Shown piece by piece: positions 32,581 to 34,359 of a DNA stretch of 36,011 nt. Origin of the DNA: Sanchytrium tribonematis. Lineage: Eukaryota. Position numbers and translations under genes: made by a program. Below the pieces are notes generated by a model. It was not told the origin of the DNA, made no database searches, and saw nothing but the letters and a program-made list of their open reading frames with translations. Each line of letters begins with the position of its first letter. Positions within the stretch are counted from its first letter, which is position 1. The stretch spans positions 1-36,011 of the forward strand of contig JADGIG010000035.1 of assembly GCA_018985235.1 (NCBI GenBank). The letters run 5' to 3'.

Positions 32581-34359
32581 ATGAAACCATATCAGCGCGA
32601 AAATAATATGCAGAGCGGAAATGGACAACATGAGATATCTTACACAGATTTAGTGCCTTTCAAGAAGGACTTCTACAAAGAAGCAAGTTCTGTAACAGAG
32701 AGAGCTGAAGATCATATTTCTTCTTTTCGAAAAGCACAAGAAATGACAGTATTTGGAAGTAACATTCCAAAGCCTGTTGAGGAGTTTGATGAGTGTGATT
32801 TTCCTCCTATGATCAAAAGAAAATGGGAGGAAGCTTCCTTTGACAAACCTACTGCTGTTCAGGCGCAAGGCTGGCCTATGGCTTTAAGTGGAAGGGATAT
32901 GGTTGCGGTAGCTGAGACAGGAAGCGGAAAGACTTTGTCTTTCTTATTGCCTGCATTTGTTCACATCAAAGCTCAACCTGCAATTCGATATGGAGATGGA
33001 CCTATTGCTTTAGTTTTAGCACCCACTCGTGAATTAGCCAAACAAATTGAAGTAGAATGCAGAAAATTTGGAGACAGAATCACATGCACATGTTTGTACG
33101 GAGGTGCGCCAAAAGGGCCTCAAATTAGGGACTTAAGAAGAGGTGTTGAAATTGTCATTGCAACCCCTGGACGTTTAATTGATTTGCTAGATCAACAAAG
33201 AACTAATTTAAAGAGAATTACCTACCTTGTCATGGATGAAGCCGATAGAATGTTAGATATGGGTTTTGAACCACAACTTAGAAGAATTGTCGAACAAATT
33301 CGACCTGACAGACAAACTCTTATGTACTCTGCTACTTGGCCAAAAGAAGTCAAATCCTTGGCAAAGGACTACTTGAATGACTATATTCAAGTCAATATTG
33401 GAAGCTTGGAATTAAGCGCAAATGCTAGAATTAAGCAAGAATTTGAATTTGTTGAAAACTATCAGAAAGCTAACAAAACTTTAGAAGTTATCAATAAGTT
33501 GAGAGAAGAATATAGTGGAGTTCCTCGTATGCTTATTTTCACTGCAACAAAGAGAGCTGCGGATGAATTGCAACAGACATTGAACAATGCTCAACTCCAT
33601 GCTCTTGTTATTCACGGTGATAAATCTCAGGATCAGAGAGAATGGGTTCTTGCTAAATACAAAGAAGGACGCTACAATATTTTGGTAGCGACTGATGTGG
33701 CTGCTCGTGGTTTAGGTATGATATTTTAATGTCTTCATTGCTTGGAAATTAGAGATATATTTCCTTGTAGTGCCGGCATTAAAGGAAATATATCTCTAAT
33801 TTCCTTGCTAATGTAGGACAGTTCTAACTTAGATGTTAAGGACATCAAAGTTGTTTTAAATTATGACTTGCCAATGAACATTGAAGACTTTATTCACAGA
33901 GTTGGCCGTACAGGTAGAGCTGGAAAAGACGGCCGTGCTATTTCCTTCATTTGCAACGAAAACAAGAAAATGGCTAAGGAGTTGGCTAAAGTCTTGCGTG
34001 AAAGTGGACAACCAGTCCCTTCACAATTGGACGCTATGAGACAAACTCAAGATTATGTGAATCCACGTTATCAGAAAAAGAGATATGATAACAGTGGAGG
34101 TGGATGGAGAGGAAATAACTCTGGTGGATATGGGAATTCCGGCGGATACGGAAACTCTGGTGGTTATGGAAACAATAGTTATGGCAATTCAAGAAGTTAT
34201 GGTAATTCTAATGGTGGCGGAAATCGCTATGGATCTGGAGGTGGTAACTCATCATGGGGCAACGAAAGAAGCAATGATCGTTCATCAGGATGGGGAAACA
34301 CTGACAACAACGATTCATGGAGATCTCGACCACAAAGCAACAACAATAGCGGGTGGTAA
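32581..34359 (+). CDS. DBP2: DEAD-box RNA helicase Dbp2/p68 (DDX5/17); exons 32581-33715 and 33833-34359 (553 aa)
   Basis: Q motif, [30 protein letters not shown], spliced [22 protein letters not shown] and a G/Y/N/S-rich tail. Confidence 0.96.
33716..33832 (+). other. 117-nt structured intron of DBP2 (GTATGA...CTAACTTAG)
   Basis: GT-AG ends, phase 1 within motif V (ARGL-D); removal joins the two helicase ORFs. Confidence 0.93.
33744..33804. repeat. Perfect 23-bp inverted repeat (33744-33766 / 33782-33804), core of a hairpin spanning 33730-33820
   Basis: GGAAATTAGAGATATATTTCCTT and AAGGAAATATATCTCTAATTTCC are exact reverse complements. Confidence 0.97.

What the first reader, a model, noticed from the sequence alone, without database searches (positions are those of the whole stretch)
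33716..33832. DBP2 intron folds into one long hairpin that shrinks it to near-tiny size: candidate helicase-sensing autoregulatory switch
Seen: the intron has a perfect 23-bp stem (33744-33766/33782-33804). The stem extends inward (TAGTG/CATTA around a CCGG loop, bulged G33767) and outward past a TT/TT mismatch (TGTCTT-CATT-GC 33730-33741 pairing with 33807-33820, two bulged T). About 91 of 117 nt lie in the hairpin, leaving 14 nt at the 5' end and 12 nt at the 3' end, about 26 nt in all; the other two introns here are 19 nt. Retention gives a stop four codons in (GMIF*, TAA 33727-33729). Known: DBP2/p68 genes carry a conserved intron at this motif V position, and the yeast intron mediates autoregulation. 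Inference: a spliceosome tuned to tiny introns may need the fold to bring the splice sites together, so the duplex-unwinding Dbp2 could block its own splicing, a minimal feedback sensor.
Basis: partly seen in the sequence, partly recalled or inferred. Interest (0 to 1): 0.9.

Follow-up and report, generated by a model that had tools for sequence, protein, structure and literature searches.

The report
Folded DBP2 intron among tiny introns
In a sanchytrid-like fungus whose two other introns in this region are predicted to be only 19 bases long, the RNA-helicase gene DBP2 has a 117-base intron holding a long inverted repeat that is predicted to fold it down to about 26 bases, which likely lets it be spliced and would let surplus helicase turn down its own gene by melting the base of the stem.

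Summary
The gene groups with Amoeboradix (sanchytrids, 100/100). Read-through tails of six RPN11 homologues imply 19-23-nt introns with the branch A at -6 in this group. The 28-pair inner rod is probably too long for a DEAD-box helicase; the likely sensor is the 12-pair outer helix, which also hides a GTAG that could start a 20-nt decoy intron (chance about 0.06). In filamentous-ascomycete-type homologues the same intron is also over-long and folds better than shuffles (20 of 24 at z<-2), but covariation was not significant. No sanchytrid orthologous intron DNA and no RNA across the intron were found, so feedback is untested; one relative reads straight through the site. Each piece has precedent: folded long introns (Giardia, Trichomonas), yeast DBP2 autoregulation, the plant DEAD helicase-sensing hairpin. 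The combination in a tiny-intron fungus was not found in print, nor in earlier scan notes. New variant; zipper likely (0.7), feedback 0.4.

The parts
32581..33715 (+). DBP2/DDX5 exon 1 (DEAD domain and most of Helicase_C, ending in motif V VAARGL plus one base)
   Evidence: start codon assumed from homologues P0002/P0003
33716..33832 (+). Motif-V intron, 117 nt, phase 1
   Evidence: junction matches P0135/P0255; no RNA across it
33716..33729 (+). Unpaired 5' leader: 5' splice site GTATGA and in-frame TAA (33727-33729)
   Evidence: 20 of 26 aligned ascomycete-type orthologous introns also start GTATGA
33730..33741 (+). 5' arm of the outer (base) helix, 12 pairs, predicted sensor helix
   Evidence: worth 13.3 kcal/mol
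33744..33804 (+). Inner rod: perfect 23-bp inverted repeat plus 5-pair stem and CCGG loop
   Evidence: -35.4 kcal/mol alone
33807..33820 (+). 3' arm of the outer helix; holds a second branch-point-like CTAAT (33808-33812), a TAG at 33814-33816 and a GT at 33813
   Evidence: sequence; unpaired probability 0.18-0.25
33813..33832 (+). Candidate nested 20-nt decoy intron (GTAG start, shares the true branch point and 3' site); its removal would leave the premature stop in place
   Evidence: chance of a GTA 18-22 nt from the end 0.063 in 20000 shuffles; post hoc, unverified
33821..33832 (+). Unpaired 3' tail: branch point CTAAC (A33827, position -6) fused to TTAG
   Evidence: same -6 A in the two 19-nt introns and allowed in all six RPN11 tails
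33833..34359 (+). DBP2 exon 2 (motif VI and Gly/Asn-rich tail)
28976..28994 (-). 19-nt intron in RPN11 (reference for normal intron size)
14013..14031 (-). 19-nt intron in a PTR2 peptide transporter gene (reference for normal intron size)

Best explanation
The 117-nt DBP2 intron carries a 40-pair inverted repeat that is predicted to fold it to 26 unpaired bases, which likely lets a spliceosome built for 19-23-nt introns remove it, and surplus Dbp2 would melt the 12-pair base helix and so block productive splicing of its own mRNA. Shown: the intron, the repeat, the premature stop on retention, the fused branch point and 3' site. Inferred: when folded, the true 5' site lies 20 unpaired nt from the branch A and the competing GT at 33813 is buried. 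When the base helix opens, the path grows to 56 unpaired nt and a 20-nt intron look-alike (33813-33832) is exposed; retention or decoy splicing both give the same 382-aa protein ending GMIF, without motif VI. The inner 28-pair rod would stay paired and act as a scaffold that lets the base helix re-form. My odds: hairpin forms in the pre-mRNA 0.9; needed for efficient splicing 0.7; Dbp2 feedback through it 0.4; decoy site used 0.2.
For: Fold z -8.9, strongest in the window. Sense strand folds better than antisense (-48.7 against -39.3) and both wobble pairs are G-U on the transcribed strand (weak, 2 of 2). Tiny, narrow intron sizes in the group: 19, 19, 19, 19, 21, 23 nt from six RPN11 tails. 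The intron is kept at this site in Amoeboradix and P0002 (frames stop just after VAARGL-G) and is at least 29 nt in P0002. The orthologous intron is 433-607 nt in 28 of 29 distinct ascomycete-type loci (one 899) while neighbouring introns of the same genes are mostly 46-71 nt; its core has z<-2 in 20 of 24, against 13 of 24 for the reverse strand and 0 of 24 for upstream exon-rich controls; a shared nested set of helices pairs in 75% of cells against 70.2% shuffled and 33-44% slid. L070, a DBP2 gene with this as its only intron, also folds into one rod (z -2.15). Yeast retention is relieved in a helicase-dead mutant (PMC4695336 citing Barta & Iggo); plant DRH1/RH46 use a 20-bp intron hairpin as a helicase sensor, and opening only its bottom half suffices.
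Against: No RNA read or contig covers the intron and no sanchytrid orthologous intron DNA was found (0 hits; 0 of 114 loci), so neither splicing, conservation of the hairpin nor feedback is shown. A clade member (P0255, contig of 2939 nt) has no break here: spliced RNA or intron loss. The Amoeboradix tail GIVSF* allows any length from 17 nt up and by hand fits a plain 22-nt intron. The collapsed length, 26, is above the 19-23 range. The 23 pure Watson-Crick pairs are unlike the 50 other distinct motif-V introns examined (longest 13) and look like a young inverted duplication. In ascomycete-type introns MI-APC covariation was not significant (0 of 51 pairs in the top 1%, 3 in the top 5%, p 0.09), RNAalifold found 0 pairs on the full alignment and 8 marginal pairs on the core; the pair list came from these same sequences. 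The decoy GT has a chance level of 0.06 (0.20 for any GT). In S. pombe the same intron acts through Mmi1-driven decay.
Confidence: 0.4

Rival explanations
1. Constitutive zipper: the fold is simply what any long intron needs in a genome whose spliceosome accepts only about 20-nt introns; it lets the intron be spliced but does not sense Dbp2.
For: Long introns of Giardia, Spironucleus and Trichomonas, several in ribosomal protein genes, fold to the size of the short ones (PMC6679479 passages); yeast zipper stems are common and poorly conserved (PMC12350175). Tiny intron sizes here.
Against: It does not explain why this particular intron stays long when the others shrank, nor its over-length and folding in other fungi, nor the known autoregulation through it.
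Confidence: 0.3
2. Recent foldback insertion or template-switch duplication: a 62-nt palindrome landed in the loop of a small older hairpin (or in a tiny intron) and is tolerated because folding keeps the effective length unchanged; the perfect rod has no role of its own.
For: 23 perfect pairs with no wobble; a 5-nt direct repeat TTGCT at 33738-33742 and 33805-33809 brackets the rod, one base out of register; without 33743-33809 a 50-nt intron still folds into the same base helix with the same 14 and 12 nt tails (-6.5 kcal/mol). This origin is compatible with the best explanation for the base helix.
Against: No other contig of run X1 (81,121 contigs, may be the source) matched the intron at 80% likeness and one 26-kb contig crosses it unbroken, although matches as short as 22-35 nt were reported elsewhere; no 12-mer of the hairpin recurs in the window. 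The direct repeat can arise from the helix itself.
Confidence: 0.15
3. Decay or processing signal: the long duplex is a substrate for an RNase III or Dicer-type enzyme, or a protein-binding site, that removes unspliced DBP2 pre-mRNA or yields a small RNA.
For: A 28-pair rod suits double-strand RNases (general knowledge, recalled); the S. pombe intron is decay-promoting (PMC4695336); the only Rfam resemblances are miRNA hairpins.
Against: All 11 Rfam matches lie far below their gathering scores; the stem ends leave exactly the splice signals free, as a splicing aid would; presence of the nucleases was not tested.
Confidence: 0.1
4. Assembly or amplification artefact producing a local inverted repeat.
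For: Whole-genome amplification makes inverted chimeras (recalled); only one DNA run holds the sequence and may be the source.
Against: Depth 109 with no variant letters or joints; the sequence returns to frame with intact splice signals; the imperfect outer helix and loop are not a simple copy.
Confidence: 0.03

Closest known systems
Conserved DBP2/DDX5 (p68) intron and its autoregulation (Barta & Iggo 1995, not read, cited in Kilchert et al. 2015, PMC4695336)
   Same: Same gene, same motif-V phase-1 position (as in 53 metagenome loci), over-long compared with other introns, stop on retention.
   Different: 117 nt rather than several hundred to over a thousand; almost all of it is one hairpin; no cis-element of this form is described for yeasts in the passages seen; S. 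pombe acts through Mmi1 decay.
Plant DEAD motif in DRH1/RH14 and RH46 (Sack et al. 2025, PMC12218528; Burgardt et al. 2026, bioRxiv 10.64898/2026.01.23.701338)
   Same: [quoted passage not shown]
   Different: Land plants only; 20-bp stem inside a long intron that hides an alternative 3' site; here the hairpin is the whole intron, would be needed for the productive splice, and hides mainly a 5' site. No sequence homology tested; function there is shown, here not.
Folded long cis-introns of Giardia, Spironucleus and Trichomonas (Hudson et al. 2019, PMC6679479)
   Same: Uniform short introns, branch point fused to the 3' site, long introns whose stems bring the ends to near-standard distance (25-45 nt there, 26 here).
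   Different: Unrelated lineage; standard size 19-23 nt; host gene is an RNA helicase, which allows feedback.
Yeast zipper stems (Rangan et al. 2025, PMC12350175) and RPL7B autoregulation by loss of a zipper (Granas et al. 2025, PMC12311795)
   Same: A stem joins 5' site and branch point; in RPL7B the gene product represses splicing by removing it.
   Different: Linker here is 20 nt and the stem ends 6 nt before the branch A, well below the yeast limits (42-85 nt, 20 nt); RPL7B works by binding an alternative structure, not by unwinding.

Membership tests
Conserved DBP2/DDX5 motif-V intron | Host gene is a DBP2/DDX5 orthologue | tested here: met
   Top named hits are Dbp2/DDX5; DEAD plus Helicase_C; tree
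Conserved DBP2/DDX5 motif-V intron | Phase-1 intron in the Asp codon after VA[AS]RG[LI] | tested here: met
   same site in 53 of 114 loci with both ends called
Conserved DBP2/DDX5 motif-V intron | Much longer than the organism's usual introns, stop on retention | tested here: met
   117 nt against 19 nt; TAA 33727-33729
Conserved DBP2/DDX5 motif-V intron | Inefficient splicing that depends on Dbp2 activity | not testable with these tools
   No RNA over the intron
Plant DEAD motif | Hairpin in an intron of a DDX5-like helicase gene | tested here: met
Plant DEAD motif | Used alternative 3' splice site at the stem base | tested here: inconclusive
   CTAAT plus TAG at 33808-33816 lies in the base helix, chance 0.11; use not shown
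Plant DEAD motif | Occurs in land-plant DRH1/RH46 genes | tested here: not met
   Host groups with Amoeboradix, 100/100
Plant DEAD motif | Match to the published motif alignment | not tested
   Alignment is in supplements I did not fetch; Rfam 15 gave no such family
Yeast zipper stem (Rangan 2025 definition) | Stem of 6 bp or more between 5' site and branch point, starting 10 nt or more from the 5' site | tested here: met
   40 pairs, starts at +15 (definition)
Yeast zipper stem (Rangan 2025 definition) | Ends 20 nt or more from the branch point; total linker 42-85 nt | tested here: not met
   6 nt and 20 nt; it works like a zipper but is not one by the yeast rule
Folded long intron of short-intron genomes (Hudson 2019) | Uniform short introns with fused branch point and 3' site | tested here: met
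   19-23 nt, A at -6, from 2 window introns and 5 further RPN11 tails; inferred from frames
Folded long intron of short-intron genomes (Hudson 2019) | Folded length equals the short-intron length | tested here: inconclusive
   26 nt against 19-23 nt
MITE / foldback element | Terminal inverted repeats | tested here: met
   23-bp perfect arms
MITE / foldback element | Target-site duplication | tested here: inconclusive
   5-nt direct repeat, one base out of register
MITE / foldback element | Many copies in the genome | tested here: not met
Rfam miRNA, snoRNA or cis-element families | Score at or above a gathering threshold | tested here: not met
   11 matches to E 10, all below threshold; 0 in 10 orthologous loci

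The most novel reading that the evidence does not exclude
The DBP2 motif-V intron is an ancient structured helicase-activity sensor across fungi, whose several-hundred-base branched rod in filamentous ascomycetes has been compressed in sanchytrids to a single hairpin: a 12-pair base helix toggles between a productive 117-nt intron and a nested 20-nt decoy intron. It would be the smallest complete form of the element behind yeast DBP2 autoregulation.
Probability: 0.2. Interest if true: 0.8.

Novelty: new variant of a known kind. Interest (0 to 1): 0.55.

Why it matters
How Dbp2/DDX5 limits its own expression through this intron has been open since 1995 (as of PMC4695336 the factors were unknown for S. 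pombe). A 117-nt version that is nearly all one hairpin names a testable element, and the folded homologues in ascomycete-type loci let the test move to tractable fungi. It also points to sanchytrids as a further lineage with 19-23-nt introns, in the range of nucleomorphs (18-21 nt, PMC10245619), which my searches did not find reported, and to a stem closer to the branch point than the yeast spliceosome model allows.

Tried and rejected
No whole genome is held, so 'are all long introns hairpins' and a full copy-number search could not be run. Run search found 2 runs: X1 (DNA, may be the source) and X2 (RNA, share 0.06); X2 has one 148-nt exact piece in exon 1 and nothing over any of the three introns; it is no evidence of expression or habitat. 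A sanchytrid-specific DNA pattern found nothing in viral or metagenome contigs; protein-pattern scans of viral contigs found nothing; genome contigs gave one bacterial match, not used. The 50%-representative search added no new clade member. RNAalifold on 26 introns gave no pair; MI-APC gave no significant covariation; the z-scores used only 8 shuffles and are not relied on. No covariance model was built. snoRNA and miRNA identity rejected (no D box or H/ACA layout by eye). Recursive or twin-intron readings using internal GT at 33731 or 33767 and AG at 33752, 33769 or 33784 give no product of 19-23 nt with a -6 branch motif (by eye). A shared CCTT/AAGG in the main helices of the window, ascomycete-type and plant-type introns is too short to count as homology. 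Earlier scan notes held nothing on this.

Full report
What is there. The window is a gene-dense eukaryotic contig (GC 0.31-0.38; Pfam hits for PIP5K, ORC2, HMG-CoA synthase, PTR2, GUF1/LepA, SURF1, RPN11, Sir2 and a DEAD-box helicase among 29 ORFs scanned). DBP2 runs 32581-34359 on the plus strand with one intron, 33716-33832. Retention ends the protein at GMIF*, before motif VI.

Who it belongs to. Exon 1 is 83% identical to an unnamed ENA protein (P0002) and 78% to Amoeboradix gromovi (P0003); all others reach 62% at most among the 120 listed. A tree of 18 proteins puts the window, P0002, Amoeboradix and P0255 together at 100/100: a sanchytrid-like fungus. Published sanchytrid genomes are 10.5-11.2 Mb at 35-36% GC (PMC8371127, passages); that paper's main text has no statement on their introns (supplements not read).

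Normal intron size. The window has two other introns by reading frame, both 19 nt. RPN11 homologues predicted without splicing keep a read-through tail from which the intron length can be worked out: 19 nt for the window, Amoeboradix, P0260 and P0262, 23 nt for P0377, and 21 nt for P0261 if its stop is TAG; all six allow an A at -6 and a T at -8. The four unnamed ones were not put on a tree. So the 117-nt intron is about six times the norm, and the folded form (26 nt) is close to but above the range.

The same site in relatives. The Amoeboradix and P0002 frames stop just after VAARGL-G, so both have the intron. The P0002 tail rules out any intron under 29 nt; the Amoeboradix tail only sets a floor of 17 nt and by hand would fit a plain 22-nt intron. 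P0135 and P0255 read straight through, which confirms the junction but may mean either spliced RNA or intron loss. No sanchytrid DNA for the intron could be fetched, and no RNA covers it.

The same site in distant eukaryotes. A pattern for WVL-x12-ATDVA[AS]RG[LI] followed by the donor GT gave 114 metagenome loci (scan cut at 18 of 64 parts); both intron ends were called in 53 (78-1592 nt). Of these, 29 distinct introns are of filamentous-ascomycete type, a label I infer from the flanking peptide and did not test on a tree; 28 are 433-607 nt and one 899, while other introns of the same genes, estimated from tblastn gaps, are mostly 46-71 nt. I aligned 26 of the 29 (left out: two near-duplicates and the 899-nt one); 20 of 26 begin GTATGA like the window's. 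Averaged pair probabilities show nested long-range helices topped by a three-hairpin junction. In 24 of the 26 (two more near-duplicates left out) the central 300 nt had z<-2 in 20, the reverse strand in 13 and an upstream exon-rich control in 0 (14 shuffles each); these sequences are related and the control is not intronic. The 51 chosen pairs are kept in 75.0% of cells against 70.2% shuffled and 33-44% slid, with 117 double changes against 65.6, but the pairs were derived from the same sequences. Against this, RNAalifold gave no pair on the whole alignment and eight marginal pairs on the core of 12 sequences, and MI-APC showed no significant covariation (0 of 51 in the top 1%, p 0.09). So folding is supported, a conserved structure is suggested, covariation is not shown. 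L070, with this as the only intron in its DBP2 gene, folds into one rod (240 nt, z -2.15, 3 of 200 shuffles as good). None of the 50 other distinct introns has a Watson-Crick run over 13 bp, so the window's perfect 23 bp is exceptional and may be young. Rfam has nothing at threshold for the window or for 10 of these loci.

Mechanism. The hairpin has two parts. The inner rod (28 pairs, -35.4 kcal/mol) exceeds the 10-15 bp that DEAD-box helicases unwind (bioRxiv 10.64898/2026.01.23.701338, section 14). The outer helix (12 pairs, two bulges, one G-U, 13.3 kcal/mol) has single-stranded tails on both sides, a form yeast Dbp2 unwinds without polarity (PMC10193013, passages). Opening it lengthens the unpaired path from 26 to 56 nt. 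Its 3' arm also holds a GT at 33813, 20 nt from the intron end: of 7 tiny-intron look-alikes on both strands of the window, 3 start GTA at 18-22 nt, the two real introns and this one (the 3' half matches by construction). The chance of such a GTA is 0.063, of a second branch-like motif with TAG 0.11, of both 0.007, chosen after the fact. I therefore commit to a zipper that the tiny-intron spliceosome needs (0.7), with Dbp2 feedback through the base helix (0.4) and the decoy as a possible extra (0.2). All of these steps are inferred.

Rivals. A constitutive zipper without sensing (0.3) has direct precedent in diplomonads and Trichomonas (PMC6679479, passages). A recent foldback insertion (0.15) is suggested by the perfect arms, a 5-nt direct repeat one base out of register and the fact that a 50-nt intron without the rod keeps the same base helix and tails; no second copy was seen in run X1. 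A decay or small-RNA substrate (0.1) and an artefact (0.03) are less likely.

What is known. The intron's position and length are conserved and its retention is relieved by a helicase-dead mutant in S. cerevisiae (PMC4695336, passages, citing Barta & Iggo 1995, which I did not read). A helicase-sensing intron hairpin is shown for plant DRH1/RH46 (bioRxiv above: abstract, sections 5 and 14, passages, supplements closed; PMC12218528, passages). Zipper stems are defined in PMC12350175 (passages) and autoregulation by loss of one in PMC12311795 (abstract). The fungal structured-RNA screen PMC8216456 has no mention of helicase genes in its main text. Other tiny-intron lineages: PMC10245619, PMC13644364, PMC6009652 (passages); PMC10459994 says nothing on sanchytrid introns. 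Nine literature searches (open-licence library only) listed no paper on sanchytrid intron size or on a fold in fungal DBP2 introns; I saw those lists as titles and abstract starts. Earlier scan notes held nothing like it.

Verdict. Real feature, correctly described; interpretation plausible, refined and untested. New variant of a known kind, interest 0.55.

Noticed in passing
window minus 28994-28976 and 14031-14013; proteins P0259-P0262, P0377: Sanchytrid-like fungi appear to have 19-23-nt spliceosomal introns with the branch A fixed at -6; the Amoeboradix proteins in the collection are split at such introns (ORF-only prediction), so published proteomes may be fragmented. Not found in print.
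   Followed up: partly
L001-L078 subset, alignment A4 columns about 137-768 (e.g. L013:2545-3002 minus): The DBP2 motif-V intron of filamentous-ascomycete-type loci is 433-607 nt and shares a nested rod with a core helix CCTTG/CAAGG-like and three inner hairpins; not in Rfam; folding significant, covariation not.
   Followed up: partly
L034:213-958, L037:2243-3002 minus, L057:2968-4016 (alignment A7): Three plant-type (RH30-like, label recalled) motif-V introns share conserved blocks, including complementary arms about 90 nt apart near the 3' end and a possible long-range pairing near the 5' site; distinct from the DEAD motif genes named in the papers read.
   Followed up: no
L070:1388-1627: An unnamed DBP2 gene whose only intron is the motif-V intron (240 nt), folding into one rod closed by a 14-pair helix 20 nt from the 5' end.
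   Followed up: partly
proteins P0141, P0144, P0256: Five extra in-frame residues at the motif-V junction, as a 15-nt intron read through would give: in some other tiny-intron eukaryote this intron may itself be tiny, with no room for a hairpin.
   Followed up: no
proteins P0135, P0255: A clade member with no break at motif V on a 2939-nt contig: spliced transcript or intron loss.
   Followed up: partly
window 30442-31455 plus: ORF of 338 codons with three 136-nt repeats (TYEWATGQGKY unit), resembling LEA-type stress proteins (resemblance recalled; Pfam only a weak apolipoprotein match).
   Followed up: no
window 35267-35289 plus and 4768-4786 plus: Two further tiny-intron look-alikes (23 and 19 nt) from the pattern scan; the second lies inside an intact ORF, the first just upstream of a short ORF.
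   Followed up: no
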